64,000 bases of DNA from Botryllus schlosseri (Eukaryota): positions 34,660,001 through 34,724,000 of the forward strand of contig CM119371.1 of the NCBI GenBank assembly GCA_051294905.1. Reading direction: 5' to 3'. The translations under genes and the position numbers were made by a program. Positions 21,443 to 63,625 of this stretch are shown one piece after another. Under the pieces are notes generated by a model. It did no database searches. It was not told the origin of the DNA and worked only from the letters and a program-made list of their open reading frames with translations. The stretch's first letter is position 1. Each line of letters begins with the position of its first letter.

Positions 21443-22573
21443 AAGGCAAAAAAAAAACATTTTTATTTTGACGTGTTCATGATAAACATATATTGGTGAT
21501 CATGGGGAACATTTTTAGATGTCTCCCTACTATCGAAGAAGCGCCGAAATTGCTTGTATTTTGACTTGAATGCGGACATGCTCGACGACTGTCAGATAGC
21601 CGGCGGGATGCTTGACCGCATATGAAATGAACATCGGCCAGAGTCAGAGTGGAATTGTTGGGACCGTCCCACGTAACTTTCCATGTAATATTTATAATTA
21701 CTTGATTATTCCAGGACAGATACCCGTCTGTCATGTGCTATTGTCGAAAAAAACCATTCGTTTAGTCTGGAACTGGAACAAGGATTACAGATTGCGTTGT
21801 CGTAAACTGGTAGTAAAGTAAACTGATAGCAATGTATCTGTGTTCCATAGCCGGCTCACAGCACTTGCCTTAACCATGCAACGACTACTGCAATTTTCCA
21901 TGTATAATGCGCAAAATTTTACCGATTTTTTGCCCCAAAATAGGGGGGTGCGTATTATACATATGTAGGCCTACAACAATAAGCCTTGAAAAAAACTAGC
22001 TCAATAAAAACTTGAAATCGCACTTTTCTTCATGTTTGTTTCCAATCGCGCATCACTTTCAGCCATCGTACCCAGTAATTCATATTTTCAGTTTAACGCG
22101 CTGCCAATTAGCGAGAAGCGCGTTGTAAATTAACGAGAGCCGTCTGGCCGTAGGTTGTTATAGCCGGCAGAGAAAAGCCCTCGTTTCCCCTCCAATTTTC
22201 GACTTGTACATTGTGACTCTATAACTTGCCACTACATCTCATCAGAGTCAGATGAAAAGCTTTATGAAGTCTACGCATAAATCGATAATATGACTATGTT
22301 TTTGAATATATGAACATAACAAATATAACTGAACTTTCACTATAACTCTACAATTTCCAAATAGCTTTGTTGCTCACCTCAAATTACCTTTTGTGGCCCA
22401 CCCATTGAGAACCCCTGCCTTATAGACACTGCCATTGCGGAGACCAAAATCGTTAATCGTGAATTACCATTTACCACTTTCTCTCGTCTTTGTGTTTTAG
22501 AATACCAATTTAGCAATGCCTAACTGACAGTTCTCATCTCACTGAATTATTCTGATCGCGGTCTCTTGAAGCG

Positions 22574-23826: not shown

Positions 23827-24423
23827 TAGGGTTGTTCCAAAATAGCTTTTTTCCCGGATTCCAGGGACTCACTTATTTATTGTTAGGTTGCCCAAGAAAA
23901 CGTTGCACGCCAATTTGCCTGGATTTCAACTGGTAGATGTGAACGCACAGGAGTTTGAAAAGTTTGAATTTGTTGTGGACAAGATTATGAAATATTTTTC
24001 AAATTTGACTGTCAACCACATGAAATTGTGGGGCTGTCTGCAAAAATGATGCGAGACAAATTTGATGCAATTCCAACCCGTAGAAGCGATGTCATTGAAG
24101 TTTTTCATTAATCACTCTTGGATTATCAACCGTCCAGGCTATTCTTGCTAATCCAAAATTTTCAACTGCAATAACTTCTTCTATCGGTTGGAAGTGACAT
24201 AAAATGTTCAAGCATTGTTCTTCCAGACAACTTGACAATTTCGTGGATTTGACTGTGAAATTGAAGTTTTTTCACTACATTCAAGTTTTTCAATCTCCTG
24301 TGCGTTCACATCTACCAGTTAGGAACGAGCCAAATTTGGTGTGCAGCGTTTTTTTAGGCAACCTGACAGTTTATTCAGTGAATCCCCATAATTCGTGAAA
24401 ATAGTTATTTTTGAACAACCCTA
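23827..24423. mobile_element. MITE with long TAGGGTTGTTC TIRs (hATm-like)
   Basis: TAGGGTTGTTCCAAAATAGC ... GTTATTTTTGAACAACCCTA with ~100-bp inverted ends; relatives at ~93-300, 30613-30925 and 31346-32940. Confidence 0.8.
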
Positions 24424-25320
24424 ATGAACATGAATGACTGAACAAAGTTGCATTTCTTCCATTCTAAGCTTTTGTTTACAGTTTTTAGGGCGGAAATCCT
24501 AAAGTTAGCTTATCCGGGAAATTGCTAATCGTCTGATTAAAACTGGTAATCCTCGCTCATAGACGTTTAGTAAGAGTATTATCCCGAGTCATTTGGTGAC
24601 ACTTTTAATCCAGCGAAGTAGGTTGCTGTGATTTGCAATTATTAATCAGATGATTTCTCTTGGATAAGCTAGCATTATGATCTCTGCCGTTCATTTAGTT
24701 CAGAAAAGTCATGTGCACAAGAGCCATGCAGAAGCGAATGGCAATATTATCTTGATTGATTTTGAACCCATCTTTGAATGGGATGTGTTTATCAGCTATT
24801 ACAGCAGTTTGAAGCAGGGCACTTTGAAATCATGTGTGCTTGTCTGCATGCCTTATTTTTATATTTAAGTCAGTTTCAAAGTTGTACAAATTACCCATTT
24901 AGTTAGTTAAACATCAACTTACTAACGGTGTTTTGAGTTGTTCTAGTTCTAGTTGCAAATTTCAAAATGGGAGTAGTTCTAGCTATAGTGGCGGATTTTG
25001 AAAACTGATTAGGCCTAGTTCCAGCTCTAGTTGCTAGTTTAAAAAAATGATTAGTCCTAGTTCTAGTTGCATATTTTGTAAATTGAGTACGTCCAGTTCT
25101 AGTTCTAGTTGCGAGTTTTAAAAAATGAGTAGCCTAGTTGTAGTTTTAGTTCTTGTCGCAGATTTTGAAAAGTGAGTGGTTCTAGTTCTAGTTGCGCATT
25201 TCGGTCAGCTCACTACTGGATCTTTGGAGGCACACTAGCATGCCATGACACACTGTTTACAAATCACTTAGACAAAGGTAGAACTTTTGTTGTACGAATA
25301 ATAATGACATGAACTCGATT

Positions 25321-28715: not shown

Positions 28716-29543
28716 CACTGGATGACTCGAGTCACCTATTTCGTATGACTTGACTTTTCAGAAATGCGTATTGACTCGTGACTCGAAGCAAAATTTACGA
28801 GTCGATTTCAAGTCATCAAGTAATCGATGTTGACTAAATCGCTGTATCTTGTATAAGTTCGGATTGTTGACGATACGCTGGTGGGGCCAGGAGAGCAACC
28901 AATCACTTAATGATTGTGTGTTTCACCAAGCCTCTATTGATATCTTGAAAACAAATTGATCGCTAACGCAGTGATCTGAGCTTACGTTATCGTAAACTAG
29001 CAGTAAAGTAATATCCTAGCAATGTATCTCTGTTCTATGAACTGCTAACAGTGTCCATTGCTCACCTTAACCTACCCTTTTGTATGATTTGAATCAAACG
29101 AACATCGTTCATACGTTTATAATTGTGTATCATGGATATGTAGGTAGGCTATAGGGTGTTGCACCATATCATTTGTTCAACTTTCGGAGGTTTTGTATTT
29201 AAGCTGTATTTGACCGATAATTATAGACTGGAGCTATACCGCTACTCCCGTCGTTCAGCAGTTCTACTTATGCATGAGCGATACAGCGCATTTTTGCGTG
29301 TATAATCAACTTTACATTCATTCCTCGATTCAGAATAAATGGGGACTCCATCTGTATTTAAAACAGTTAGCGAAACGCAATGACTTTAAATCATGTATCT
29401 TACTTTTAAAGTTCAACTTTACTCGACTAGTGACTCGACTTAAGTCACCTTTGGAATCGAGTGACTTGATTTGACTCGAGCCAAAATGTGCAATGACTCG
29501 AGATGACTTGGGACTCGAAGTTAGTGACTTTATCCCAACACTG
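28716..29543. mobile_element. CAGTGTTGGGAT-family MITE copy
   Basis: Colinear with 7012-7812; right end ATCCCAACACTG; left end degenerate. Confidence 0.75.
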
Positions 29544-29925
29544 CATGTTGTGGACTTTCCTTTTTTTTTTAAATCTTGCTCATTTTAGATTCATGGAATT
29601 TAAATTACCACATTTAAATCTTTATATATTCAAATGTTTTCAGTTATTTAATTTCGGATGTAATTTCAAATGATCCTTATGGATGTCGACTTTCGACTGT
29701 CTGTATTGCTGGTAGAGATGTACACTGGACAGCATCAAGATTTTCAATTTTAATCGGACAAGACTGGATTTGGATCAAGACAGGATTCTAAATTTCTATT
29801 CTATTTAAGTGACTTTGTAGCCTACTTGTGTAGTGTCCAGTTGAACAGAGAACGCATCTGGTTCGGAGAATTGTTGAATAGCAAATTTCAGCGCATCTCC
29901 AGAGACGTAGTTAGAACCTATCTCG

Positions 29926-31200
29926 GTGGGTCTAAAAGACCACCATAAACGCAGCCACTGCACATGTGAGATCTGTGGGAAAGTGTTTTCAGGCTACATG
30001 GGTTTGAAATCACATTGGAATACACATATTGAAGTTAGAAACTACGGATGTGAGATTTGTGGGAAGTCTTTCACTAAAAAAGAGCAAGTAAAAGTGCACA
30101 TACATTTTCACATAGGAGTAAAAAACTATGTATGTGAAATTGGTGGTAAATCTTTCAATCAGAACAGAGACATGAAGGTACATGAGACTACACATACTGC
30201 AGTCAAAGGCTACAAATGTGAGGTATGTGGGAAAGCGTTTTCAGTCCACAACTCATTGAAAAACACATTGGAATACACATACCGGAATCAAACACTATGA
30301 GTGTGAAGTCTGTGGGAATTCCTTCACTACAAAGCCACATTTAGTAGAACACATGGATATTCACGCTGCAGTAAGGAAATTTGGGTGTGGGATCCGTGGC
30401 AGAATGTTTACTCTGATACCTAGCTTGAAACCACATGTGCTTACACATACTGCAGTCAAAACCTACGAGTGTGAGATGTGTGGGAAGTCCTTTGCCTTGA
30501 AGGGAAATTTAACACGTCACATTCTTTTTCATACTGGAGTCAAAACCGACATGTGTGAGATGTGTGAGAAGTCATTCGCTACCAAAGCTCATTTAGGACG
30601 ACATATGCATATTAGGGCTGTTCAAAAATAACTTTTTGTTCTTGATTCCAGCCATTCAGTCATTAAATTGTCAGGTTACCCTGAAAAACGCTGCACACCT
30701 AATTTGGTTCAATTCTAACAAGTATAGGGCTCCGCTGATCTAATTGAAATTTTTAATTTCAATAGGAAAATTAAAAAATAATGTCAAGTTTTTCTGTCAA
30801 CCCCATGAAATTGTTGAGCTGTCTTCAGACACGACGCAGAACAAATTTGACTCAATTCCAACTAGTAGAAGCGGAGTTATTGGAGTTTTTCGTTGATAAT
30901 CCTCGGATTATCCACCAATCAAGGTTCTGACTGGAATAAAAGAAAACATAAGTGCGAGATCTGCCCGAGCGTTTGCTAGACTCACACGAGTATTCATTCC
31001 GGAGTCAAAATCGACGAACGTTGCATCTGCTGGAAGTCCTTTCCAAGAAAGGCATATTTAGAAGGCACGTCTCAAAAACTTTAATTTTGTTTTCATTGGT
31101 AATATGTTTACTAATGTCGGTGAATTGAAAACATCGTGGAATACACATACTGGAGTAGAAAAAAGCGTAATGTGAGATCGGTTAGGAGTATCCTGCATTG
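29926..31200 (+). pseudogene. C2H2 zinc-finger array pseudogene 1
   Basis: Repeated CEICGK..F...L..H...H units; frameshift near 30260; Cys-loss fingers (CEIGGK, CGIRGR); MITE insertion at 30613 truncating a finger at HMHI; decayed fingers resume at ~30930. Confidence 0.85.
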
Positions 31201-31345
31201 GTGTCAAAATCTTCAAAGTACTTTTGAGGAAACTTTGCATCACCATGCACCGTGAAAAATAGCACCTGTTCTGGGGGGCTGGAGTTAGTTTAGAAACTAT
31301 TGCCTATTTGTGCTGCCATAATTATTTTGCGTCTGTCGTGAAGAT

Positions 31346-32940
31346 TAGGGGTGTTCAAAAAAACTTTATTCCTCAAATTTCATCGGCTTAATTGTCAAAT
31401 CGTCAAGTAAGCTATAAAAACGTTGCACACCAAATTTGACTCAATTCCAACCGGTAGAAGCTGAAGTCTGTCAAATGGAAATTTCGGTCATTTTTGAAAT
31501 TATAGTATTTACGGTGACCAATTTCGTCACACCGATATGACCAAAAATCGTGTTCCAGGTATGCCTGAAGAGGCAGGGATGTCTTATTGACTTGTTTTGA
31601 TCTTGGCAAGAGCATATGGTGGAGTTTAGATGAAGACATCGCCAGTAAACGAAAAATGATATGACATGGAAATTAGTCCACTTCATTAAAACAGATGCTT
31701 TTAACCGATGGCGAGATAGTTTTCAAACAGAGTACTTAACACACTAAAATTAACGACCACGAAAAGGAAACGAACTGATAATAAGCACGTAAAATACGGT
31801 TAAATATATTTCCCAAGTGATAGTCAATATCTATATTCTTTTTCGGTCCAATGTAGATTTCTTCACAATACAATTTGATCTTATCTGATATTCTATCATT
31901 TGCTCTGCAGCACTCCTATGGTACTCTCACAGGTGAATTATAGAACTAGGGCATCGTGACAGATCTTATTCCTCTCAAAAGTTATCGTCCTCTCTTCATG
32001 TCATCCTCCACATTTGGTGAATACCATCTATAATTGTATCCATATCTTGTGGTAGAACACCAATATTTTTTCTTATTCTATGACAAGAAGGGGATATTGA
32101 AAGACCGGAAAATGACTAATGTACTAGAAGCTCAGTGGGTTACCATTTAATTACACTGAAGCTGAAAGTTTCGAACACATAAAAAGCTCTAGTATCAACG
32201 CTTATGTGAAGTACCAGAAATGCTTTTACAACTCATAAATACTATTCATTGGCATAGCCCATTTTCAATTGTAACCAGCACCATTTTTAATGCCCTGGAT
32301 CAGTCAATGTCAAGTAGCAGAGAAATTCTCGAACACTGAGCTGCTGAGGAATGAAACTGATGTCTCTGACGAGATTTTGGGAATGGCGACTTTGCAATCA
32401 GTAAAAACTACGAATCAAGGCAGAGAGACATCGGTATGCCCTGCATATCTGGGATGGATTTCGTGAAATCTAAATTGGTGCGACAAAAATACTTCGATAT
32501 ATGACTTTTACTTGAAAAATATAGGTATCCGTATTTTACCTGCTGGTCAGTTCATTTCCTTTTCGTGGTCGTTAAGTCCAGTGCGTAAAGAACTCTATTT
32601 GAAAATTATCTCACCATCCTTTCTACGTGGCTATTGCAATGAAGTGGACTAATTTCCAGCTAATCTGTGTCATATACTTTTTCGTTTATTGGCGATTTCT
32701 TGATCCAAACTCCACCATAGGCCCTTTTCAAGATCAAAACAAGTGGAGAAGACATCCCTGCCTCTTCAGGCATACCTGGAACACGATTTTTGTTTATGAC
32801 CAGGTGACGAAATTGGTCACCGTAAATACCGTTATCTCAAAAGTGACCGAAATTTCAATTTGACTGACCTCGGCTTTTACTGGTTGGAATTGAGTCACAG
32901 GTAACCTGACGATTTGACAACAAAGCCGACGAAATTTGAA
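31346..32940. mobile_element. Foldback-like element with ~450-bp imperfect inverted repeats (TAGGGGTGTTC family)
   Basis: 31370-31800 is the reverse complement of ~32520-32940; ORFs 31471-31686(-) and 32627-32863(+) are mirror translations. Confidence 0.85.
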
Positions 32941-33227
32941 AAAAAGGCAACCGCTGGATGTAGACTGTAGAGTCATGATATATAGCTCCAAATCTGCAGA
33001 AACATCATGTTTCTATCTGTCTTAAGAAGAAAGTTCTCTCTATTGTGAACACAAAGCGAGTTATAGCCAAAAAACAGTAAAACCGCTATTTTTTCAAATT
33101 TTGGCGTTATACAGTGCAGTTATTGACTCTTAATAAGCCATGTTTTGTTTTTACAGATTGTTACGCTACACCTAGTTACTTTACAAAGTAGCCTATCGTA
33201 TGATTTATTGGGTTTATGATCACAATT

Positions 33228-33825
33228 ATGGTGAGAACTAGACGAAGTGGAGAACATATCAAGATTTTGCATGGTGGCGAAAAGTTCAGTGGTTGTCAAA
33301 AGTTTCCACCTGGTTTACTGCCCGCAAAAGGGCAAGTGATAGAGAGAATACTCCAATTCAAGAACTTTCGCACTAAACAAGCTGCGTCAAAAGTTGCGAA
33401 AGAAATCTATGACATCTGAGTGTTTGGCAATGTTCATCCTCTGAACCAACGTACCATAACCCAAAAGATTCAATTGTTGGTCATAGACTTTAGTAAACTC
33501 CACCGGTGGCCAAAAAGCAAACGTATTAAATCGTACTTGAAAAAGCAAGCAATTTTTTTTGTCAAACGTAGATGAATTGTATGACATCTTCTGTACAGAT
33601 GATAATCAACGAAAAGATTTTGAAAAACAGCATAAGTTGCGAATGACTGAGAAGGATTGGAAATTTTACAATGATCAAAAGGGGCCGCGTGCTGAAAGAT
33701 GTCTGGATATTATCGGGCCTTTGGATTCATCTGACCAAATTTTCGCACGCCGGTTAACGTCACAACTGAACGCCAGAACTTCCTCAGCCCAAAGTGAAAT
33801 GGAGGTCGAACTGGATGCTGGGCAT
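33228..33825 (+). pseudogene. DNA-transposase N-terminal relic (tentatively hATm-type)
   Basis: MVRTRRS...LLPAKGQVIERIL...AASKVAKEIYDI*, then FLSNVDELYDIFC...MTEKDWKFYNDQKGPR; pattern (LP..QV, LFDI.C, D..F..DQ...R) recalled from invertebrate hATm-type transposases; stops and frameshifts present. Confidence 0.5.
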
Positions 33826-34530
33826 GGGCAATTTAGATAGTCACGGTGGAATCAAAAACCATGAATGTGAAATCTGTGGCAGATCATTCAATCAGATTGG
33901 TACATTGCAAACACATGGGAATACACATACCGGAGTAAAAAGCGATGAGCGTGAGATCTGTGGGAGGTCATTAGCTTCAAAGTCATGTTTAGCAGGACGC
34001 ATACCTATTTACACTGGAGTAAAAAACTATAAATGTGGGATCTGTGGAAAGAAATACACATGCATATCTACACTGGAGTCAAAAAGTAGGTATGTGTGAT
34101 ATGTGAAAAGTATTTCACTGAATGTGGAAGTTTAGCAAAGAACAACAAAATTTACACTGGCGTCAAAACTGTAAGTGTGAGATGTGTGGGGAAGTCGTTC
34201 ACTGGAAAGTTAGGTTTAGCAACACACATGCATGTTCACACTGAAGTTTAAAAAACATGAGTGTGAGATCTGCGGCAGAGCGTTCACTTGAATCTGTAAC
34301 CTGAAATCACACATGAATACTCATTCTGGAGTCAAAATCTATGAATGTGACATCTGCTGGATATCCTTCGCTGGAAAGACACATGCATATTTACTCCGGT
34401 CTCGAAGACTATCAATGTATAATCTGTGGTAATACGTTTACCGAAGTCGGTAAATTGGAAAGATCTCGGAATACACATACTAGAGTAAAAAAAGCTAAAT
34501 GTGAGATGTCTTGTGAGTATCTTGCTTGAA
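33826..34530 (+). pseudogene. C2H2 zinc-finger array pseudogene 2
   Basis: HECEICGRSFNQIGTLQTHGNTHTGVK... with lost Cys/His residues, deletions, stops and frameshifts. Confidence 0.85.
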
Positions 34531-34630
34531 AAGTGTCCTTAGCCATAACGCAGTCGCATGGGCGACATATATTGACATTATAGTCACAAATGTTTTTATT
34601 CTTTGAATTATGAGGTAGAAAGTACTTGAG

Positions 34631-34884
34631 AGGAAAATCTGCATCACCGTGCTGAGTGAAATGTTCATATCGACCGGGAAAAATAACCCCTGAACTGTGG
34701 TAGCTGAAGTTATTTTAGGAACTATTTGGGGTGCCATTATTACTTTGCGTTTGTCGTGAGGAAAATCTGCATCACCGTGCTGAGTGAAACGTTCATATCG
34801 ACTGGGAAAAATAACCCTGCACTGAGGTAGCTGAAATTATTTTAGAAACTATTTGGGGTGCCATTATTACTTTGCGTTTGTCGT
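34631..34884. repeat. ~127-bp direct tandem duplication in the 3' flank of ZNF pseudogene 2
   Basis: GAGGAAAATCTGCATCACCGTGCTGAGTGAAA...TTTGCGTTTGTCGT occurs twice; one diverged copy at 31216-31345 behind pseudogene 1. Confidence 0.9.
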
Positions 34885-35620
34885 AACGATGTACCCTGAA
34901 AGTAGTCACCTTCGATTAAGTTCTATAAGTGTCCAAACCCTTGGTCAAATCTAATTTTTTAAACTATGTAGCCGAGTACTTTTCAGAACTTCATTTCCAC
35001 TTTCACTAGAAGTAGTTTAGGCATGTCTTTGAACTTGTACTTGATTAGACTTTAACGACGGTACTTCTACTAGAGTAGCGACAATGACTACTTCTGGGTA
35101 TACAGGAGTAATTTGTTCGTCAAACTGGACAGGCATCTCGTCGCTCCATCCATTCCATTTACGGGTAAAAAAGAGATTTTGGAGTTCTTTGAACTGTCAG
35201 TTTTCTGCCAATTTGATTGTTCACTGGTTTCATTCCTGGATTAAAATGAGGCTTTTGGTTTTCTTGAATGGTCAGTTTTTGTCGGGTGGTTTGCTTGTGC
35301 CCAAGTAAATATACACCCAAGTGGAATTGTGATATCAGAAAAAGGTGTGTCTGAAATGGCTATGGTGTATTGTCTTATTACCGATCATTGCAACGCAGAG
35401 ACATATTCAAGTGCTATTAAAATGTTCAGTTTGTTTTCTGTAATTGGTTACTTTCAGTGTTTTGCACACCTTTTGTTTCAGACTGTGGTGCTTTAATATA
35501 ACACTTCCCTTACTATGCAATAGCCGATGCTCGGCGATTGAAGGATACCGTAATTATTTTCGAACAAAGAACTGTGGATGTGTGCTACCTGAAGAAGTAA
35601 CTTACAAATACGCAGGGAGA

Positions 35621-36886
35621 ATGACAAAGAAGATATGCTCGATCTGTGGAAAAAAGATCTCTTCATGGAAAAGACATTTGATAATATGCCCTCGTTTCAA
35701 AAATCATGAATGTGAGATCTGTGGGAAATCCTTCAGCAAAAAGTCACAATTAGCAAAACACATGCTTTATCACACTGGAGTCAGAAACTATGAATGTAAG
35801 ATCTGTGGGGGAATGTTTACTACGAAAGGTAACTTGAAATCGCATTGGGATGTGCATACTGGAGTCAAAAACTATGATTGTGAAATATGCGGGAAAACCT
35901 TTACTTCGAAGTCACATTTAACACGTCATATTCGTATTCACACTGGAGTTAAAGACTACAAGTGTGAGATCTGTGGGAAGTCCTATGCTGCAAAATCCCA
36001 TGTAGAACAACACATGGATATTCACATTGGAGGCAAAAACTATGAATGTGACTTCTGTGGCAGAGCGTTTAGTCGAACTTGTGTCTTGAAAAGACATTGG
36101 AATACACATACTGGAGTCAAAAACTACAAGTGTGAGATGTGTGGGAGGTCTTTCGCTGAAAGAGCCATACTAAAACAACATATGCATATTCACTCTGCGG
36201 TAAAAAACTATGAATGTGAGATATGTGGCAGAGCGTTTACTCAAATCAGTGTCTTGAAGATACATGGGAATACACACACTGGTATCAAAAACTATAAATG
36301 TGAGTGCTGTGGGAAGTTCTTTGCTATAAAGGGAAATTTGATGCGTCACATTCGTAGTCATACTGGAGTCAAGAAGTACAAGTGTGAGATATGTGGAATT
36401 TATTCCGCTGGAAAAACCGACTTGATACAGCACATGCGTATTCACACTAGAGGTAAAAACTATGGATGTGAGATATGTGGCAAAGCGTTTACTCAAATCA
36501 GTGTCTTGAAGATACATGGGAATACACACACTGGTATAAAAAACTATAATTGTGAGATTTGTGGCCTAGCCCTCGCTTCAAAATCAAGTTTAGCAATACA
36601 TATCCTTATTCACACTGGAGTAAAAAACTATGAATGTAAGATCTGTGGTAAGTTGTTTGCTAGAAAGGCGCAGTTAGAAGGACACATACACATTCATACT
36701 GGAGTCAAAAACTATGAATGTGAGATCTGTTGGAAAATGTTTTCAAGCTACTCTCAATTGAAATCACATGGAAATACACACACCGGGATCAAAAACCACA
36801 ACTGTGAGATTTGTGGAAAGTCCTTCGCTAGAAAGTCACATTTAGAAGGGCACATGCACATTCATACAGAAGTCAAAATCCAATGA
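35621..36886 (+). CDS. Poly-C2H2 zinc-finger protein (14 fingers plus a degenerate first finger), no effector domain seen
   Basis: Open ORF of tandem 28-aa fingers with TGVKNY linkers; ATG 35621 aligns with the ATG of the 38400 paralog (MTKKICSICGK vs MTKTCSICGK); acceptor TTTCAG at 35481. Confidence 0.9.
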   Translation: MTKKICSICGKKISSWKRHLIICPRFKNHECEICGKSFSKKSQLAKHMLYHTGVRNYECKICGGMFTTKGNLKSHWDVHTGVKNYDCEICGKTFTSKSHLTRHIRIHTGVKDYKCEICGKSYAAKSHVEQHMDIHIGGKNYECDFCGRAFSRTCVLKRHWNTHTGVKNYKCEMCGRSFAERAILKQHMHIHSAVKNYECEICGRAFTQISVLKIHGNTHTGIKNYKCECCGKFFAIKGNLMRHIRSHTGVKKYKCEICGIYSAGKTDLIQHMRIHTRGKNYGCEICGKAFTQISVLKIHGNTHTGIKNYNCEICGLALASKSSLAIHILIHTGVKNYECKICGKLFARKAQLEGHIHIHTGVKNYECEICWKMFSSYSQLKSHGNTHTGIKNHNCEICGKSFARKSHLEGHMHIHTEVKIQ

Positions 36887-37519
36887 TATAATTTCTGTCG
36901 AAGAATGTTTACTCATATTGGCACATTGAAAACTTCGAAATACACATACTGGTGTCGAAAACTACGTAATTGAGATCTGTTGGAAGTAATTTGCTACAAA
37001 ACCATATTCAGAAAGACTTATATATGCACACTGGAGTGAAAATACGAATATAATATCCGTGAGAAGCCTTTCAAATTAATTTTAGATCAGTGGAAGTGCA
37101 TTTACTTGATCGAAGATATTTATATCGCAGTTTGAGCTTTTCAAGTTTGTTGTCATTATTAAATCTCGTGTAAAGTCGGTTGCGTATCTTGGTGTGTCAG
37201 GATGTATCCCGTTTATATATGTTTTGCAGTTGCTATTGCTTTTTATTTTACCGTATTTAGTAGCATACTTATCGTTCTTGACTCGTTCGGGTTTCAAGAA
37301 AGAGTGAGCATGATCTGATTCTTGGAAAGACGCAAGTCAACTTTTTCAGGCCCTTATCCGTGTCACATTGTTGTAGGTTATTTGTATTTATATTAATATC
37401 ATTCGACATATACCTCCTCTAGTCTTTATTCAAAATTAACGTGATGTTGCTTGTATTACAAAATGAAATAATTCTACTGTTTAATATTTGAGTAAATATT
37501 AGTTCTTTTCATTTTCACA

Positions 37520-37596
37520 GTTTTCGAGCTGATTTTATCCAACTCTTGTGTTCAAAGTTCTGAAAATGCTCCAAAGAACAATAGTACAGGCTGCAG
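37520..37596 (+). pseudogene. Duplicated, donor-less copy of LYPLAL1 coding exon 1
   Basis: ATG at 37566 gives MLQRTIVQAA-G (31 nt) vs MLHRTIVAPT-G at 41259; upstream acceptor context conserved; followed by AT instead of GT. Confidence 0.75.
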
Positions 37597-38399
37597 ATGG
37601 CGACAAAAAGATGCATCAAATACCAATACATGTTTGTGTAAATTCGTGTATTTAAAACTCGTTACCTCGTCTCTTATTTGCCATAAGTATGCAAACTCGC
37701 GACTTGAGTACATCTCATACCTTCATATTCTAGTTCGACTTTAAGTAAATTTGACATGTCTTGAGTATCGTTACTACTAATTGTACTTGACTAGAAATGA
37801 CGACGTTACCTCTAATTCTACTGGAGCACCAATGATAACTATTTTGACCACCTCTGTGTTGACAGACGTACTGTAATTTGTTCGTAGAAGCAGAGGTACA
37901 TTCGTCACTAGGAATCAATTTTCAGAAAGTGACTTCCGAGTTCCTTGAACTGTGAGTTCTTGCTGGTTGAGCAGTTTGCTGGAGCTTCAGTAAATGTACA
38001 CCACACTACCTATGTTCCCAAAATATTTGAGCATGCTGGACAACCGCTTTGTAAAGTGTATCTCCGAAACGTTTGACTGACAAATATTAAATTGTGACAT
38101 CCCAAGTATGTCCTACACGTCTATCCATAACAACTTGCTTGGAATGTGTATGGTCTTGGTTATCTTGTTACCAATCATCGTATATGTTAGTGTTTTCATA
38201 ACTGGTTACTGGTGTTTTTCATCAAAATGACGTCACTGATAAATTTTGCATTTGCACACATTATGTTTCAGATTGCGATGCAATATTATAAAAATTCCTT
38301 TACTACACGATAGCCTCTGGTCTGCAAGTTAGTCGTATTTGGGCTGAGAACTTCGAATGTCTGATGCTAGAAGAGATCATTTAAAGATAAGCGGAAAGA

Positions 38400-39746
38400 A
38401 TGACGAAGACATGTTCGATTTGTGGGAAAAGCTTCCATCATCACGGTGAAATAAAAACTCACTTTCAATTCCACTTAACTGAAAGAAAAATTGAATGTGA
38501 CATCTGTGGTAAAGTTTTTTCTGCCATCACTTTATTGAAAAAACATCTAAAAACCCACTTCAGTTTCAAAAACCATGGTTGTGATATCTGTGGCAAAGTG
38601 TTTTCTACCATCAAAAACTTGAAAATACATAGCAATATACATACTGGGGTCAAAAACTATGACTGTGAGATATGTGGAAAACGCTTTTGCGCAAAGACAA
38701 ATTTAGCAAGACACATGCATATTCACACAGAAGCCAAAAACCATGAATGTGAGATGTGTGGGAAAATATTTGCTACGAAGGCGATTTTAACACGCCACAA
38801 TCATGTTCATACTAAAGTAAAAAACTATGAATGTGCCATCTGTGGGAAAACCTTTGCTAGGAAGGCACATTTAGAAGGACACGTGCACATTCACACTGGA
38901 CTCAGAAGCTACGAATGTCAGATCTGTGGAAAAGTGTTGTCAAGTGACTGCGCATTGAAATCACATTGGAATACCCATTCCGGAATCAAAAACTACAAAT
39001 GTGAGATCTGTGGAAAAGCGTTTGCTCAAATCAGTTACCTGAAAAGTCATAGGAATGGGCATATTGGAGACAAAGACCATGAATGTGACGTTTGTGGGCA
39101 AGTCTTGGCTTCTAAACGAAGTTTGGCAAATCATATCCATATTCACATTCACACTGAAGTAAGAAACTATGAATGTGAGATCTGTGGAAAAGTGTTTTCA
39201 GGCTACACGTCATTGAAATCACATGGGAATACGCATACTGAAGCCAAAAACTACAAATGTGAGATGTGTGACAAGTCTTTCAGGACAAAAATCTGCTTAG
39301 CAAATCATATTCATAATCATAAAAGAGTCAAAAACTACAAGTGTGAGATGTGTGGGAAAACCTTCACTCTAAAGAAAAGTTTAGAAAGACATATACGTAT
39401 TCACATTGGAGTAAAAAACTTTCACTGTGAGATCTGTGGGAAAACCTTTGCTCTAAAGTCATCTTTAGAAAGACACATACGTATTCACATTGGAGTAAAA
39501 AACTTTCACTGTGAGATCTGCGACAAGTCATTTGCTCGAAAGGCACATTTGGAAGGACACGTGAACATTCACACCGGAGTCAGAAAATACAACTGTGAGA
39601 TCTGTGGAAGAGTGTTTTCAAGTGACTGCACATTGAGATCTCATGGACATAGACATACCGGAATCGAAAACTACAAGTGTGAAATCTGTGGCAAATACTT
39701 TTCTCAGAGTTCTAATTTAAAACGTCATGTGAATACACATATTTGA
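38400..39746 (+). CDS. Poly-C2H2 zinc-finger protein (16 fingers), 448 aa
   Basis: Open ORF of tandem C2H2 fingers; acceptor TTTCAG at 38271; decayed extra fingers after the stop, to ~39990. Confidence 0.92.
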   Translation: MTKTCSICGKSFHHHGEIKTHFQFHLTERKIECDICGKVFSAITLLKKHLKTHFSFKNHGCDICGKVFSTIKNLKIHSNIHTGVKNYDCEICGKRFCAKTNLARHMHIHTEAKNHECEMCGKIFATKAILTRHNHVHTKVKNYECAICGKTFARKAHLEGHVHIHTGLRSYECQICGKVLSSDCALKSHWNTHSGIKNYKCEICGKAFAQISYLKSHRNGHIGDKDHECDVCGQVLASKRSLANHIHIHIHTEVRNYECEICGKVFSGYTSLKSHGNTHTEAKNYKCEMCDKSFRTKICLANHIHNHKRVKNYKCEMCGKTFTLKKSLERHIRIHIGVKNFHCEICGKTFALKSSLERHIRIHIGVKNFHCEICDKSFARKAHLEGHVNIHTGVRKYNCEICGRVFSSDCTLRSHGHRHTGIENYKCEICGKYFSQSSNLKRHVNTHI

Positions 39747-39991
39747 GTTGGACTGGTATTGTGAGATATGTGGGAAATTCTTCCTTAGTGAGAGAAATTA
39801 AAAAGTACACATTCATAATAACGCTGGAGTAATCAAACTATGAATGTGAGCTTCATTGCAAAGCGTTTACTGAGTTGGGTAACTTGAACCAACACAGGAA
39901 TATTCATAATGGAGTAAAACAACCAATAATGTCATATGTACCGAAAGTCTTTCTTGAGAAAGGCATATTTAGAAAGACATGCATATTCACA

Positions 39992-40818
39992 TTACCCTAA
40001 AATCGGGGGTGCGTATTATACATGGGAACAACACGCTTGAGAAAAATCTCCCTCGATAAAAACTTGAAATCACACCTTTCTTCATGTTTGTTTCCAATCG
40101 CGCATCACTTTCAGCCATCGTGCCCAGTAATTCGTATAATCGGCGTGACGCGCTACCAATTAGCAAAAAGCGTGTTGCCAATTAACGAGAGTCGTCTGCA
40201 CAGCACGCAATCTCCTGCTGAGTTGGTTTGTCGTTTGCACGCGAGCGAAATTAGGTCATTCATTGATTGCTGAACCGCGCGCGGCAATCCTCGCTAATTC
40301 ATCGACAGGCCATGTGCGCAAAATATAATCGCTTGAGTAATCAATCGCACCTCCAACAGGCGTGGTGTGCACGACATAACCGTTTTCCTGAGCAATCGCT
40401 TCTGACCTCGTGCGCAAGATGTCGCGTCGCCGGCCTCGCAGGCTTTGGCTGCTATCTACTATCGTATAGAGGCAATACCGTTACCGTTACTTGTATAATG
40501 TTTAGCAATCGCATCTGTAACAGGCCTCGTGCGCAAGACGTCGTGTCGCTGACCCGAACTATCGTTTCGGCATGTCTCGCAGGCTTTGGCTGCTCTCTAC
40601 TACCGTTTAGAGAAAATGCCAATAATTGCATAATGATTAGCATGGTTATGTCATGATTGTTCGACAGTGACATCGCGAAACAGAACAACATCGTGTGCTA
40701 AAACACAGCTATCCATGTACTGCGAATGCAGGGTGCGTACTCTACATGGGCACAGGCTTTTTCCCAGAATTTGCATGCCACTTTAAGGGGGCGTACTATA
40801 CTTGGAAAATTACGGTAT
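39992..40818. mobile_element. Tc1/mariner-group (pogo/Tc2-like) non-autonomous element
   Basis: GGGGGTGCGTATTATACATGG ... GGCGTACTATACTTGGAAAATTACGG-TA; homologous to ~21888-22150; left end truncated. Confidence 0.55.
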
Positions 40819-41258
40819 ACGAAATGTAATCATCACCCTGAACCTTATAGGGATATATCCCGTTATAAGCGATTCGTTGTCGCTGATATTATTTTGCCAT
40901 ATTTTTGTCACATATGTACTTTATCAGTTTGAAACACCAATACGTGTTAATGTGTAAATTCGTGTATGTAGAATCGTTAGCGTTTCATGTAAAGAAAGAG
41001 TCTGATACGTCTAACGCAACAACGCAACTTTTCTTCCAATAGGCTACTCAATCTTTGTCTCATTGCAGAAGGGTAATTCGTTAAATAGCAGCTAAAAGCC
41101 ATTTCAATTTATATGCGTACCGGAATTTTATCATTATTTGGAACTGGTCTCAACAAATTACCAATTCAACTGTTTATTATTTGAGTAAACGAAACCTATT
41201 TGCATTCTCACAGATTTTAAAATTATTTCATATTACTTGTGTTTTCGGAGTGACAAAA

Positions 41259-44200
41259 ATGCTTCATAGAACGATCGTAGCTCCTACAGGTAAGCTGACA
41301 CTAAACAGCTTCTCGGTATTTCGTCAACTTGTTCCTACCTTGATTTCTTGAATCACTGAACTGTAGTAATGTTGGATGCATTCCATTCACCTGTATTTCT
41401 GTCAGTGTCTTATCAACCAAGACATGCCGATATTACTCTTAAACTATGAAAATAAAACACAAAAGATCTAAACCATAATCTGTACTCAAGTAATTTGAAG
41501 GAAATCATTGGAATGAGGAGGCATTGTATACTTTTGCTCGCTAAGCCCAGAGATGTTAAAAGTTGATAGTCATGTAGAAGTAGAAATATGAGCCAAGATT
41601 ACTGCAATTGCAAGTTCTGAAAGAATAATAGCAATTTTCTAAAAATCTATTCGGTTACCCTGACACAGGGGGGTATTCCGCCCCGTTAATGTCACACATT
41701 AAGGGTGATGCCGACACCCCAAGACTACTTTCCATCTAACAAAAGCAAACATGTATAAAACTAAGCATACTTACGTAAAATCCTGAAGTAGAAGTGGGTG
41801 TAGTCTAAAAAACATATCCATTTGAGAGAGAAGTTCTTTGTTGCTGAGCACTTTTAGTCAAGCCGGTTTCAGTTCTCAGTATACGGCTATGCGGTGTAGC
41901 ATCCCGTCACCGCAAGGCCTTTTTTCATCCTATATGTATGTTGACACACTTGCAGTAGTAGTCAACTGCTAGTAGGAGAGTTGTAACCAAGGCACAAGGT
42001 TCCGAGTCGCAGGTCAATCTCACTTTTACAGTTTTTACACGAGTCAAGTGCAGTCATTTTCAATTCACCATCGAGTCAAGTCCAAGTCGGGGAGCATAGG
42101 GTCGAGTCATAGTGTAGAGACTCGAGTTCGAGTCCCAGTCATTGTGGTAAGTTTCGAGTTCGGGTCATGTTCAACCGTTTTACAACTCTGCATGGGGGAT
42201 ATCGAATGCCTCGCATTCACGATATACAGATTTTTCTTACTCTTTACGGTTTCTGGACGTCTTTTTAAGGTAGCAGTACTGGATGTTGCGATCAAGTCAC
42301 TACCTTGGAGACACAAGTCATCTCGAGTCATTGCACATTTTGACTCCAGTCAAGTCACGTCAATCAATTTTCGAAAGTGACTCCAGTCAAGTCAAGTCTC
42401 GCGATTTTTGGAGGTGACTCGAGTCAAGTCAAGTTGTCTTTTCGGAGTACGAGGCATGAATAAGTCATTGCAATTTGCCAGCTATTTGATATTCAGACTG
42501 AGTCGCTATATATTTTAAATCGAGGGATGAATATATAGAATTAAATATACATGCAAAAAGGCGTTGTATAGCTGACGAATGTGTAGTACTGCTAAGCTAC
42601 GTAACTGATGTTTGCTCGCAGTATTTAATTAACCGCCAAAATAGAGAATAGAATGCGAAACCTCAGATAGGGGAAATGAATTGAGATAATGCATCACCCA
42701 ACTACATATCCACGGGATACAATTTAAGCCTCCGCCAATGCTTGACTAGTAAAATAAACTTCAAACTATATTCGAATTCCATTTCGATCACACAAGAGAT
42801 TTGGTTAAGGTGATCACCTAGCACCAATGACCAGTCTATAGAAAAGAGATAGATGCCTTTTGTTATTATATTACATTACTTCTGCGACAACCTACGCTGT
42901 ATGTGGTCAATGTATTTCTGATAGAACAATGTAGGTTCAGTAAAACGAAAATCATTGAATGAATTAGATTTTCGCTCTCACAAGTCACACCAGAGTATCG
43001 AGAAAAATGCGAACATTTGTAAAGTAGCCTGCAGCGATTTTTATCGACACCGATTATTTGATGACTTGAAATTGACTTGAAAATTTTGCTCCGATTCACG
43101 AGTCAATCCGCATTTCTGAAACGCCGAGTCAAGGCATTTTTGCTAAGTGAATCGAATCAAGTCATACGAAAATGACTCGAATCTGACTTGAGGGTCGAGT
43201 CATTTCTCGAGTCATCCCAACACTGGTACCGATAGGCGAAGAACCACTAATGTTGTAATTTGACTATTCTTGAAAGTTGCAACGAAATTCCTGTTTAGGC
43301 CGTCTGAGTCTTGAGTTGAATGACTTGATCGAGTCATGCACAATTACTCGAGTAGCCTACAAGTAGAGTCAATATAGAAATTAAAGTCAAGTCGAGTCAT
43401 TTTCTGTATGTTGAGAGAGTGACGTGAGTCGAGTCATTACTTTTACGACCCTTGCTAGCAGTGTACAGATTTAGGTGTCCTTGGCAGAGTTGTAATGACT
43501 CGAGTCATGACTCGACTCAAGTCACGATTTCTGATGCCTCGACTTGACTCGAGTCATTATTTTCAAAATACGGAAATTACTCGACTTGACTCGAGTCAAT
43601 CTGTGAAACAACACGACTTGGACTCGAGTCATTGCGTATGACTCGAACCAAGTCATATGACTCAATCCTCAGACGGCCAAGACCGATATTTCATTGTAAT
43701 TTCGAAGAATATTAAAGTAACCACACTATTGAGATTTCGTCTATTAGCACTGGTACTTGAAAATGCTACCAAAAACCGATAAAGGTGACGAAATTAGTAT
43801 ATCTAAATGCCAACCATTGGATATCATCGAACAGAGTTATAAAATGAGGGTTTAACAAGACTTTAACACGAAACTGAGCAGTCAGCACAATGACTTGGAC
43901 TCGGACTCGAGTCATAATACCTGCTCGCTGACTTGGACTCGAACTATTCTCGGTGGTGAATTGACAATGACTCGACTTGACTCGAGTCAAAACTGTAAGA
44001 GAGAGATTGACTTGTGACTCGGAGTCTTGTGACTTGGTTACAACCCTGGTCCTTGGTGACCCATTTCTGGAAATCTCATATCTCACGGTCAATATTATTA
44101 TTATGTAAGTTGATAACTCACACAGTATTTTACCGTGATGGTATTTCAGACTATTGATTATACTATACAATCCCCCGATGATACATATAAAAACATTCAA

Positions 44201-47200
44201 GATGGTACTGTTATTCTCAGGGCGGCATACCGCATCTCTGATATTTTTGCACGGGTCTGGTGACACCGGCGTTGGAGTTCGTAGCTGGGTCGACGAATGC
44301 TTTGACAGAGTAGGCGACAAACGTGGATTCAATTTTAATCATATCAAGGTAATGTGTCATAAAATTAGGTTAAATCAGTGTCCACCCTTAAACCTTTGCG
44401 CTTAATTTTACCACCCACTTTTCACTGAGGCCGGGAAAATGAACTAAATGAGTCATGTGATTCCTAATCACGTATTAGGCGTCAGGTCGGGTGTTCGAGT
44501 ATCACTCATTATGAAGTCTCGTCAATATGAATGACGAGGAAAGTTCCAATATATAAGCGTTATCCGACCACAAACAATATAATGCCGATTCTACATCAAA
44601 ACCAGTAGTTTGTACAAGTCTGTTGGTATGGCGAACGTCGGCAATAAATGCTAGTGCGTTTACGCGAGTGTGTCTGAAATTTGTTCAGGTAATATATCCA
44701 ACTGCGCCACCACAACCTTACACCCCGTCCGGCGGAAACGAGAGCAGTGTGTGGTTCGATCGTCGGAAAATCTCGTTCAAAGCACCTGATATCAAAGAAT
44801 CTATCGACTCCATGATGTCAAAACTGGCAGATATTGTTAAGGTGATAAGTAGGGCGGTTTCTTTTACACGCCAAAAAAAGTTAAAATGTTGTCAAAATTG
44901 TAGTGTTAGGTCAGAAAAATGGCAAAATTACTTCCAAAGTCAAAATCTTTTTGCAACCTGCATTTCGTCTGTATCGTAGATGTTTACGCTGTGACTGAAC
45001 TTATCATTGATATTTTACGGCTTGTAGCCCAATTTATCGGCCTAGACGACCCATTGTCTGCTCATTGTGAATCATAAACGGCCAAATGAAACAAATAGGT
45101 TGGCAATGTGTTATTCTCAACGTATCGCAATATCCTAACTGAAGCAAGTCTGCGTGGGAGATGGACATTGGTTTTTATATCAACAAGCGCATGATGAAAA
45201 CTTGTGATGTAGACAAAATTGTCAGAATGAAGCAACACGATGTAGCACCAGCAGTGTACAGTGTACACACAACTTCAATGTTGCCAGCCAACAACTGCTA
45301 CTGTTGAACCATCTTTCTCCATTCTTGGCAAGCTACTTTGTAAGGACAGGCACTTTCTATCCGAGAATGTAGGAAAGTATCTTTCGTTGTACTACAACAA
45401 ATTTTAATTAGTACTCCTATAATGCGTGATAAAATTACTAGAATTCTTCATTTCGTTAAAATAAAGTTTTTTCAAGTAGAAGTTTGTCAGTTTTTAAGTC
45501 AAAAACGTTGGCTCAGACCTAACTACTTCGTAATGACAGACAGTTCCAACCAGAAATTAAAACAAGTGGTACAATTCTAAGATTTTGTGGGGAAAACACG
45601 TAATTTACATACTTGAGGTCAAAATTTGGTCAAAATTAAGTTTTCTAAGGTAAAAAAAGTCAAAATTTTGATTTTTTAGGTCAAAATCTTCCGTTTTACA
45701 AGTAAAACAAAATCGCCCTAGTGATAAGTATCAGTTAGTGAAGTGGTTCTTAAACTATTTTAGACACGTCCCCCATTTATTATAGCCGTATCACAAACTG
45801 CAACCAGAATGCCAGCAATCCCTTCGGATAGTTTGACAGTGTTGAAGGTTATGACTGTGGATAAGAGAGTTCTCAAAGATGAAATTAGGGTTATACACAG
45901 AGCAATAACTATATTACTTGGAGGTACACAAATGAAAGTGTGAACGGCCCTCCAAACGACGTGAAATCTGTTGTCTCCATAATCTTTCGCACAGACGGAA
46001 TTGTCTAACAAATGTTTGCCAGTAGCAGAATTCATGGCCTTTTCAGGAAATCAGTCAAGGGCTAGCTTTTCTCCGAGCGTGGTGTGAGTGATCTAATAAA
46101 TCTAGGCGTGTCGAGATAGCGGAGGAGGGTTGGTGCGATGGCATGCAAAATAAGGTCAGTCTCATGCAAAATTAGGTCAGTGGCATGCGAAATAGGGTCA
46201 GTCGCGACATGCAGATTGCAGAATAAGGTCAGTGGCATAAGAAAAAAGTAGGATTTGAAGTAAATATTTGGATTTATACGCGGACTGTTAATATTCTACA
46301 TGCGACTAACCCCGTAATCGTAATAATCGTCTGATTACATTTTGTTGAAACATCTTCAGATTTAGGATATAGATGGGGAATGTCAATCATGAAATTACTA
46401 TATAGGAAAGATATTTTGAATTTATTTTTCATCAAAAAAAAGAATTGGATTTGTAATTGAACTGTGGATTTGGATTTATGCGCGGACTGATAATAATATT
46501 CTACATGCGACTGACTTCGTAATCAAGATAATCATGATTATCTTTTGATTGAAACATCATAGTATTTAAGATATAGATAAGGAATTTCAATGTTGAAAGT
46601 AGGCTGCTATACAGGAAAGATATTTTGAATTTATTTTTCATAGGAAAAAAAAGTTGGATTTGTAATTGAAGTATAGATTTGGATTTATGCGCGGACTGAC
46701 ATTATTTTGCATGTCGCGACTGACCTTATTTTGCATGTGACTGACCTTATTTTGCATGTCGCGACTGACCTTATTTTGCATGTTTTGACCTTATTTTGCA
46801 TGTCATCGCACCAACCCTGTAGAGATAGCGTAGTGGTATTATCCACAGCTACACCACCAATGGATTGCGGGTTCGAGTCCGACTCCAGAATTCCTACCTA
46901 AGTGTTAGAGGTATATCTAGGATTCTCGCCATCTCATCCGCGTAATCGGTGTCTTACAAAAGCCTATAAGTATGCCGTGCTATAAGTCGGCAGTGACGGA
47001 ATATTGGCGTTGTTTGAATGATCATTGTAGTCGGCAAACACCATGAATACCATGAACAACAACATAATAAACCTAGGGACATGTTGTATTATGCAGCCCT
47101 GCAAACGTGGTGTCGTTCTTTTAAGCAACCTTAACTTACTGATTTCCAAAATAGGCGATAGAACTGTTTGAATTGCAGGCGGAAAACGAGTCCGGTATCA

Positions 47201-50895: not shown

Positions 50896-63625
<12,730 letters not shown>

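What the first reader, a model, noticed from the sequence alone, without database searches (positions are those of the whole stretch)
29926..39990. Birth-and-death cluster of effector-less poly-C2H2 genes with a non-canonical TG(V/I)KNY linker in MITE-saturated DNA
Seen: four co-oriented loci (two open with 14-16 fingers, two broken), a single coding exon each, no KRAB/SCAN/BTB/ZAD domain visible, and linkers TGVKNY/TGIKNY throughout. Scaffold residues are conserved while helix residues differ between fingers. Established: the canonical linker is TGEKP(Y/F), and rapidly evolving vertebrate KRAB-ZNF clusters repress transposons. Inference: a lineage-specific, KRAB-independent ZNF expansion that might recognise the repeated subterminal motifs of local MITEs (GACTCGAGTC, AAGTAG, AATTAG). 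No target is demonstrated here.
Basis: partly seen in the sequence, partly recalled or inferred. Interest (0 to 1): 0.7.

Follow-up and report, generated by a model that had tools for sequence, protein, structure and literature searches.

The report
Sea-squirt zinc-finger cluster, proline-free linkers
A sea-squirt genome holds a small tandem cluster of zinc-finger genes, two open and two broken, whose DNA-reading residues change fast and whose finger-to-finger linkers lack the usual proline; this is a familiar kind of gene expansion with an unusual linker, and no target among nearby transposons is shown.

Summary
The cluster is real: four co-oriented poly-C2H2 loci in a stolidobranch-type ascidian. 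Two are open (14 and 16 fingers) and two are broken by frameshifts and repeat insertions. The linker is unusual but not uniform. Exact TG(V/I)KNY is 7 of 28 linkers, yet 0 of 29 carry the canonical proline and 22 carry Asn, against 49 Asn in 4,279 linkers of fetched poly-ZF proteins. Helix positions +3, +2, -1 and +6 rank 1, 2, 3 and 6 of 22 variable sites in rate. Their omega is 1.7-2.6 with a shared synonymous rate, but not significantly above 1 with their own. No effector domain was found; an in-frame stop sits just before the ATG of gene 4. MITE targeting is unsupported: GACTCGAGTC is real (24 copies, none inside the cluster), but a crude code test showed no match, and the open genes lie in repeat-poor DNA. 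KRAB-independent, TE-linked ZNF expansion is already described across animals, so only the linker variant looks new. An unchecked note from this scan reports contact-residue bias in a large ZF family 2 Mb away; a sequence look-up found no look-alike.

The parts
29957..30613 (+). Locus 1 (broken), 5' part: about 8 finger units, 4 with a complete C2H2 motif; frameshift near 30259; no 5' end or start codon in the window
   Evidence: In one search, contigs of runs X5 and X7 leave the window sequence at 29957 with other letters upstream.
30615..30929 (.). Left part of a high-copy MITE (GGG(C/T)TGTTC end, TA flank) inserted at a finger linker of locus 1
   Evidence: 71% match to 23827-24131; ends read; X5 summed depth 721,194 against about 95-100 for unique pieces (not a copy number)
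30930..31345 (+). Locus 1, decayed 3' fingers and 3' flank, homologous to the 3' end of locus 2
   Evidence: 30983-31196 matches 34310-34525 at 74%; 31215-31345 matches 34619-34890
31373..32939 (.). Fold-back repeat element with long inverted arms (31437-31861 and 32465-32897, 81%) between loci 1 and 2
   Evidence: multi-copy depth in X5
33204..33837 (+). Broken multi-copy ORF relic, probably of a transposon, abutting locus 2 and replacing its 5' end; family not assigned
   Evidence: X5 depth 575-14,549 in these bins and a 26-difference second copy; no Pfam hit; Atlas hits only 0.86
33836..34525 (+). Locus 2 (broken): about 8 decayed finger units with frameshifts, stops and lost zinc ligands; 1 complete motif without a stop
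   Evidence: Contigs of X5, X6 and X7 each cover it with 1 other letter and no gap, so the broken state is shared.
34956..35195 (+). Putative non-coding first exon of g3 (inferred)
   Evidence: homologous to 37686-37951: score 179 against 57+-9 shuffled; ends at a GT shared with g4; no ATG stays open into the ZF frame
35196..35481 (+). Putative 286-nt intron of g3 (GT...TTTCAG); splicing not shown
   Evidence: core less conserved between paralogs (score 69 against 50+-8)
35621..36886 (+). g3 coding sequence: 421 aa, one shortened first finger plus 14 C2H2 fingers, no effector domain
36887..37066 (+). Decayed fingers behind the g3 stop codon
37686..37951 (+). Putative non-coding first exon of g4 (inferred)
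   Evidence: donor-like GTGAGT at 37952
37952..38271 (+). Putative 320-nt intron of g4; splicing not shown (reads and contigs cover it unspliced)
38400..39746 (+). g4 coding sequence: 448 aa, 16 C2H2 fingers; in-frame TAA at 38388-38390 just before the ATG
39747..39990 (+). Decayed fingers behind the g4 stop codon

Best explanation
This is a lineage-restricted tandem poly-C2H2 gene family of a stolidobranch-type ascidian, evolving by birth and death. Whole genes were duplicated head to tail with their 5' regions. Fingers were then duplicated and reshuffled inside each array, tails were lost by nonsense changes, and two copies were broken by repeat insertions and frameshifts (shown from the sequence). 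A founding finger carried the variant linker (consensus TGVKN-Y, no Glu, no Pro, mostly no Arg at helix +9). [quoted passage not shown] Having no effector domain, they would act by occupying sites or by recruiting partners through some of the fingers. The proline-free linker probably lowers per-finger affinity, offset by long arrays (inferred). Transposons are a plausible class of target, as for other animal ZNF expansions, but no particular target is indicated.
For: g3 and g4 share about 750 bp of upstream sequence, and L1 and L2 share their 3' ends. Finger clades mix the two genes, e.g. g3_F11+g4_F9 (support 97) and g3_F13 with g4_F7/F15/F10 (95); g3_F7 and F10 are 96% identical. Codon model on 30 fingers: core sites omega 0.32, linker 0.45, contact sites 1.8. 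Per site, +3, +2, -1 and +6 rank 1, 2, 3 and 6 of 22 (p 0.0005), and linker K and N have omega 0.27 and 0.30. Contact-site composition resembles 1,723 control fingers (Arg at -1: 5 of 30 against 16%; Arg at +6: 8 of 30 against 18%). No close relative was listed: best identity 46% among the 120 listed and 48% among the 120. TG[VI]KN is 1 of 4,279 linkers. Some ZF bins draw 5-50 times the single-copy depth in X5, which points to more family members elsewhere in the genome. The same pattern is published for other lineages (PMC2604467; PMC10547256).
Against: With its own synonymous rate, contact-site omega is 0.9-1.6 and not different from 1 in 5 of 5 data sets. With a helix-local rate it is significant in only 2 of 5. 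Linker omega rises to 0.4-1.2 with its own rate and is significant in 1 of 5, so homogenisation between fingers could mimic both signals. The finger tree has many weak nodes, and recombination was not modelled. TGEKP is described as highly predictive of DNA binding over RNA or protein binding (PMC11327367), and these arrays lack it. Expression is not shown convincingly: raw RNA depth is below 1 per strand over the coding bins, 698 of 702 laid reads fit only partly, and no splice joint is among those listed. The database searches scored 8,000 candidates each and listed only the best 120-150 hits, so absence of relatives is not proven.
Confidence: 0.62

Rival explanations
1. The family is a transposon-recognition system, a KRAB-free analogue of KZFP and FiNZ genes, and its contact residues diversify in conflict with this genome's TEs. 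This nests inside the best explanation as its driver.
For: Fast contact sites, tandem birth and death, and a repeat-rich window. ZNF number tracks TE load across animals, and ZNFs are predicted to bind TEs in octopus, sea urchin, weevil and zebrafish (PMC10547256).
Against: No binding data exist. There is no effector domain to silence with. The same paper names ZAD-ZNFs of flies as an expansion that does not appear to target TEs. Omega above 1 is not robust.
Confidence: 0.3
2. g3 or g4 bind the repeated motifs of the neighbouring MITEs (GACTCGAGTC, AAGTAG, AATTAG).
For: The motifs are enriched in the window: 24 against 0.02, 63 against 28.5, and 75 against 50.2 expected.
Against: A crude recognition-code test found no better match than shuffled helices (26 of 100 and 18 of 100 nulls as high; code recalled from memory, low power). 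None of the 24 decamers lies in the cluster. Trans-acting proteins need not sit near their targets. Such motifs are usually transposase sites (recalled).
Confidence: 0.06
3. The proline-free arrays bind RNA or proteins and not double-stranded DNA.
For: Loss of linker Glu and Pro and of Arg at helix +9 (5 of 30 against 50% in controls). That Arg supports finger packing and backbone contacts (PMC7293014). The canonical linker predicts DNA binding (PMC11327367).
Against: The fastest sites are the DNA-contact positions. Thr, Gly and Lys of the linker are mostly kept (20, 19 and 23 of 29). Atypical linkers occur in DNA-binding arrays such as Tramtrack, TZFP and ZFAT (PMC4427657).
Confidence: 0.15
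4. The cluster is mostly neutral duplication debris. g3 and g4 are recently relaxed, and the linker is a founder effect spread by finger duplication with no functional meaning.
For: Two of four loci are dead. Both open genes have lost C-terminal fingers. RNA support is very low. Contact and linker omega are near 1 when each has its own synonymous rate.
Against: The frames stay open for 1.27 and 1.35 kb, with zinc ligands intact in 30 of 31 finger units, although fingers differ by 38% of bases on average. The broken loci lose ligands readily. Omega of the remaining scaffold is 0.36-0.39 with its own rate, significant in 5 of 5 data sets.
Confidence: 0.1

Closest known systems
Lineage-specific poly-ZF expansions of animals (Emerson and Thomas 2009, PMC2604467, passages read)
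   Same: Tandem clusters, C-X2-C-X12-H-X3-H fingers with 7-residue spacing, gain and loss of fingers, fastest change at -1, 3 and 6.
   Different: Their linker is the conserved TGEKPYK. Here Pro is absent (0 of 29) and Glu nearly so (1 of 29), and no KRAB, SCAN or BTB domain is present.
KRAB zinc-finger genes of tetrapods (PMC4592553, passages read)
   Same: Finger array in one 3' exon, segmental duplication, finger turnover.
   Different: No KRAB exon or domain was found, the host is an ascidian, and no TE target is shown.
FiNZ-ZNF genes of cyprinid fish (Wells et al. 2023, PMC10547256, parts 1-2 of 9 and passages read)
   Same: KRAB-free, lineage-restricted tandem ZNF family with diversifying contact residues; two-exon layout is likely here too.
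   Different: FiNZ has a 28-residue acidic coding first exon. Here the putative first exon has no ATG open into the finger frame, and g4 has an in-frame stop before its ATG. TE derepression was shown for FiNZ and not here.
zf-C2H2 repertoires of ascidians (Styela clava TF survey, PMC8122590, passages and Table 1 read)
   Same: C2H2 is the largest and most variable TF family among tunicates (72 to 310 genes; S. clava 154, B. schlosseri 310), mostly without BTB.
   Different: The passages read do not describe linkers, tandem clusters or selection. The one S. clava protein among the listed hits (P0264, 37%) has no TG[VI]KN linker.
DNA-binding C2H2 arrays with atypical linkers: ZFAT, Tramtrack, TZFP (PMC4427657, passages read)
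   Same: Departures from TGEKP occur in tandem arrays, and Tramtrack and TZFP still bind DNA.
   Different: Those are single linkers in single conserved genes. Here one variant linker type runs through a whole multigene family.

Membership tests
Tandem poly-C2H2 (poly-ZF) genes | At least 4-5 tandem C-X2-C-X12-H-X3-H fingers with 7-residue spacing | tested here: met
   14 and 16 fingers; 27 of 28 internal linkers have 7 residues; Pfam PF00096 and PF13465
Tandem poly-C2H2 (poly-ZF) genes | Conserved TGEKP-type linker | tested here: not met
   Pro 0 of 29, Glu 1 of 29, Asn 22 of 29; Pro in 3,320 of 4,279 control linkers
Tandem poly-C2H2 (poly-ZF) genes | Lineage-specific clustered paralogs with gene and finger turnover | tested here: met
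   no listed relative above 48% identity; genome-wide count not possible
Tandem poly-C2H2 (poly-ZF) genes | Positive selection at helix positions -1, 2, 3, 6 | tested here: inconclusive
   Fastest sites; omega 1.7-2.6 with shared dS, 0.9-1.6 and not significant with own dS
Tandem poly-C2H2 (poly-ZF) genes | Sequence-specific DNA binding | not testable with these tools
   Needs SELEX, PBM or ChIP
KRAB-ZNF | N-terminal KRAB domain | tested here: not met
   No KRAB, SCAN, BTB or ZAD hit in g3 or g4 or in 92 upstream segments
KRAB-ZNF | KAP1/TRIM28 recruitment and TE silencing | not testable with these tools
   No assay; no genome held to look for cofactors
FiNZ-type (short effector exon plus ZF exon) | Short conserved coding exon spliced in frame to the finger exon | tested here: not met
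   g4: in-frame TAA before the ATG, and only pyrimidine-poor AGs after it. Both genes: no ATG in the putative first exon reaches the finger frame; leader differences fall 6, 5, 5 over codon positions. g3 is open from its acceptor to the ATG, so a more distant exon is not excluded for g3.
TE-targeting ZNFs | Binding sites enriched in TE families | tested here: inconclusive
   Crude code test against one MITE motif only: 26 of 100 and 18 of 100 nulls as high
TE-targeting ZNFs | Expression in germline or early embryo | tested here: inconclusive
   One raw RNA run, 6% read, tissue unknown, depth below 1 per strand on coding bins

The most novel reading that the evidence does not exclude
An ascidian lineage rebuilt the C2H2 inter-finger junction across a whole family (Glu to Val, Pro to Asn, Arg+9 to Asn/His), kept it under selection, and uses these effector-free arrays as a fast-evolving transposon-recognition system. 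It would read DNA with a different finger geometry or affinity and silence without KRAB, ZAD, BTB or FiNZ-like domains.
Probability: 0.12. Interest if true: 0.7.

Novelty: new variant of a known kind. Interest (0 to 1): 0.33.

Why it matters
The TGEKP linker is among the most conserved motifs known and sets the DNA affinity of finger arrays (PMC4359306, PMC11327367; passages read). A gene family that dropped its Glu and Pro while still diversifying the base-contact residues is a natural test of how much that linker is needed. Tunicates are the sister group of vertebrates and lack KRAB-ZFP silencing, so showing TE binding here would extend the ZNF-TE conflict model to them. As it stands, the cluster is one more example of a well-described process with one unusual structural feature.

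Tried and rejected
Genome-wide count: no genome is held, so not done. Protein searches with g3, with an 8-block finger alignment and against the 50% representatives returned generic poly-ZF proteins. The last was dominated by very long arrays (best 150 of 252,944), so it says little about 14-16 finger relatives. A linker-pattern scan of metagenome contigs found 0 matches. Atlas searches gave generic C2H2 clusters for g4 and nothing at or above 0.9 for the ORF relic. No RNA holder on record was listed by the run search; this is no evidence either way. The solved-structure search gave ZNF568, PRDM9, CTCF and others, with no proline-free array among the two alignments shown. Literature: four linker strings gave 6 unrelated papers. 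Searches gave no paper on this family in their listings. Subscription papers and all supplements were unseen, including the species tables of PMC10547256, which may include ascidians. Rejected: (1) a hidden coding region in the shared upstream block (short tblastx matches with stops; no Pfam hit); (2) the arrays as cargo of one transposon (no inverted repeat flanking a gene or the cluster among the 25 longest of 43 pairs); (3) retroposition as the source of the copies, since upstream regions and putative introns were duplicated with them. Structure or complex prediction was not run, as it cannot address DNA binding here.
Full report
Host and setting. No whole genome is held for this window. 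The intronless ADP-ribosylhydrolase ORF at 22574-23683 has Styela clava as its best named hits (56% identity, against 36% for Ciona), so the host is most likely a stolidobranch ascidian. I did not identify the species. Non-ZF repeats found within the window alone cover 30.6% of it.

The observation. Four + strand finger loci are present. g3 (ATG 35621, stop 36886) encodes 421 residues: a shortened first finger and 14 C2H2 fingers. g4 (38400-39746) encodes 448 residues with 16 fingers. Both are followed by decayed fingers behind the stop. Locus 1 (29957-31196) has a frameshift near 30259, lost ligands, and half a MITE inserted at a linker (30615-30929). Locus 2 (33836-34525) has frameshifts and stops, and its 5' end abuts a multi-copy ORF relic. 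A fold-back element lies between the two. L1 and L2 share their 3' fingers and flank, and g3 and g4 share about 750 bases upstream. The four loci are therefore tandem duplicates of genomic DNA.

The linker. Exact TGVKNY or TGIKNY is 7 of 28 internal linkers, so 'throughout' is too strong. The departure from TGEKP is still clear. Of 29 five-residue linkers, none has Pro at position 5, 22 have Asn, 21 have Val or Ile at position 3 and 1 has Glu. Thr, Gly and Lys are mostly kept (20, 19, 23). Arg at helix +9 is in 5 of 30 fingers, against 50% of 1,723 control fingers. For a control I used the 301 of 510 fetched proteins with 4 or more regular linkers. Of their 4,279 linkers, 3,320 end in Pro, 49 in Asn and 1 is TG[VI]KN, and no protein exceeds 30% Asn linkers. 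These proteins were the top hits of searches made with these genes. Val at position 3 alone is not rare (TGVKP 71 times). Searches for the linker strings found only 6 unrelated papers.

No effector. Pfam finds only zinc-finger families in g3 and g4. In 92 upstream open segments (24 or more residues on +, 45 or more on -), the four hits were all below curated cut-offs. A short exon of the FiNZ type (28 residues; PMC10547256) would escape Pfam, so I tested the splice geometry. Both genes have a shared TTTCAG acceptor (35481, 38271) and a GT at a homologous place (35196, 37952). The block upstream of the GT is better conserved than the core of the putative intron (scores 179 against 57+-9, and 69 against 50+-8). 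No ATG in that block stays open into the finger frame, and leader differences fall 6, 5, 5 across codon positions. In g4 an in-frame TAA lies just before the ATG, followed only by pyrimidine-poor AGs. The likely structure is a non-coding first exon plus one coding exon. Against this, g3 is open from its acceptor to the ATG, so a more distant coding exon is not excluded, and no spliced read is listed.

Selection. I fitted a codon model of my own to the 30 fingers on a nucleotide tree. With one synonymous rate, contact sites (-1, 2, 3, 6) have omega 1.8 (p about 1e-4), the linker 0.45 and core sites 0.32. Ligand omega near 0 is partly built in, because fingers were picked by their ligands. Site by site, +3, +2, -1 and +6 rank 1, 2, 3 and 6 of 22 non-core sites (p 0.0005), and linker Lys and Asn have omega 0.27 and 0.30. 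Robustness is limited (five data sets: all fingers with two trees, g4 F1-F2 dropped, g3 alone, g4 F3-16). With a shared rate, contact omega is 1.7-2.6 and significant in 5 of 5. With a helix-local rate it is 1.5-2.4 and significant in 2 of 5. With its own rate it is 0.9-1.6 and significant in none. The linker is 0.4-1.2 with its own rate. So contact sites clearly evolve about four times faster than the scaffold, and the scaffold is under purifying selection. Positive selection is suggested but not established, and conversion between fingers was not modelled. Finger types are shared between g3 and g4 but reshuffled, with recent internal duplicates at 96% and 86% identity.

Other samples and expression (4 of 24 listed runs laid on 29400-41400). 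In X5, a second sample, unique pieces have depth about 95-100. Several ZF bins reach 450-4,750 from matches at 90% identity or more, which points to further family members elsewhere; this is not a count. Locus 2 is covered by contigs of X5, X6 and X7 with one other letter and no gap, so its broken state is shared. At locus 1, contigs of X5 and X7 leave the window sequence at 29957 with 408 and 176 other letters upstream. The 5' junction seen here may be haplotype-specific, may come from a near-identical paralog, or may be an assembly feature. The raw RNA run X23 (about 6% read) gives depth below 1 per strand on the coding bins and up to 2.5 upstream of g4. Summed by hand over 33811-39825, the first mate lies on the minus strand about 2.5 times as often, which would fit + strand RNA in a stranded library. 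However, 698 of 702 laid reads fit only partly, and reads cover the putative g4 intron. Expression is therefore unproven.

MITE targeting. GACTCGAGTC is a true repeat motif (24 copies, 0.02 expected), but none lies in 29926-39990. The stretch with the two open genes is 2.1% non-ZF repeat. A crude recognition code, recalled from memory, gave no 3- or 4-finger module a better match to the motif than shuffled helices did (26 and 18 of 100 nulls as high). Such predictions are described as too inaccurate for single genes (PMC10547256), so this neither supports nor refutes binding. The one role of repeats that the sequence does show is destructive: they broke loci 1 and 2.

How it most likely works. 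Shown: tandem duplication, finger shuffling, tail loss, two dead copies, a conserved scaffold, fast contact sites and no known effector. Inferred: g3 and g4 are DNA-binding proteins with diversifying specificity that act by occupancy or through finger-bound partners. The linker keeps the Thr and Gly that cap the helix and the Lys, but lacks Pro and Glu. Linker changes in KLF1 lower affinity about fourfold without changing specificity (PMC11327367), and Arg+9 stabilises finger geometry (PMC7293014). Weaker per-finger binding spread over long arrays is therefore my best guess (0.62 for the whole reading). TEs as the driver: 0.3. The local MITE motifs as target: 0.06. RNA or protein binding: 0.15. 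Mostly neutral debris: 0.1.

Comparison and novelty. Lineage-specific poly-ZF clusters with selection at -1, 3 and 6 are long known (PMC2604467, passages). TE-linked ZNF expansion without KRAB is published across animals (PMC10547256: abstract, parts 1-2 of 9 and passages; tunicates are not mentioned in its main text). KRAB-ZFPs are almost confined to tetrapods (PMC4592553, passages). C2H2 counts vary from 72 to 310 among tunicates (PMC8122590, passages and Table 1). Atypical single linkers occur in DNA-binding arrays (PMC4427657, passages). No supplements were read. What I did not find in the searches named is a family-wide proline-free Asn linker. An unchecked note of this scan reports contact-residue bias in a large ZF family 2 Mb away in the same genome; whether it is this linker family is not stated, and a sequence look-up found no look-alike. 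Verdict: a new variant of a known kind, interest 0.33.

Noticed in passing
window 29553-29957: The sequence just upstream of locus 1 is not matched by contigs of X5 or X7, which continue with other letters at 29957; bin 29801-30201 has no depth in X6 or X23. It may be a structural polymorphism, a near-identical paralog or an assembly join.
   Followed up: partly
window 22556-23683 (+): Intronless ADP-ribosylhydrolase (ARH3-like) gene. S. clava has several ARH3-like proteins at 45-56% identity, and three unnamed hits come from contigs of the same length (11,822 bases), which suggests a stolidobranch ARH3 expansion.
   Followed up: partly
window 33204-33837 (+): Broken multi-copy ORF with no Pfam or Atlas assignment, joined directly to locus 2; probably a transposase relic (family not determined).
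   Followed up: partly
window 31373-32939: Fold-back element with 430-base inverted arms at 81%. One X6 contig shows a run of about 12 A-to-G differences at 31611-31746 within an arm, which would fit A-to-I editing of a double-stranded RNA if X6 is RNA. One contig only, and the run type is unknown.
   Followed up: no
window 34630-34884: Tandem duplication of 128 bases (94.5%) in the 3' flank of locus 2.
   Followed up: no
window 47155-47580 (+): Exon of a phospholipase/carboxylesterase gene (Pfam Abhydrolase_2); LYPLAL1-like by recall.
   Followed up: no
window 54077-62408 (-): Exon-sized ORFs that look like the spliceosomal WD40 protein SMU1 (name recalled; no Pfam hit for the two pieces scanned).
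   Followed up: no
window 7012-7812, 28724-29552, 42284-44053, 51131-54271, 57174-57673: High-copy MITE-like family carrying the palindrome GACTCGAGTC in arrays (24 copies).
   Followed up: partly
window 23827-24430: Complete MITE with inverted ends and TA flanks, of the family whose left part sits in locus 1.
   Followed up: partly
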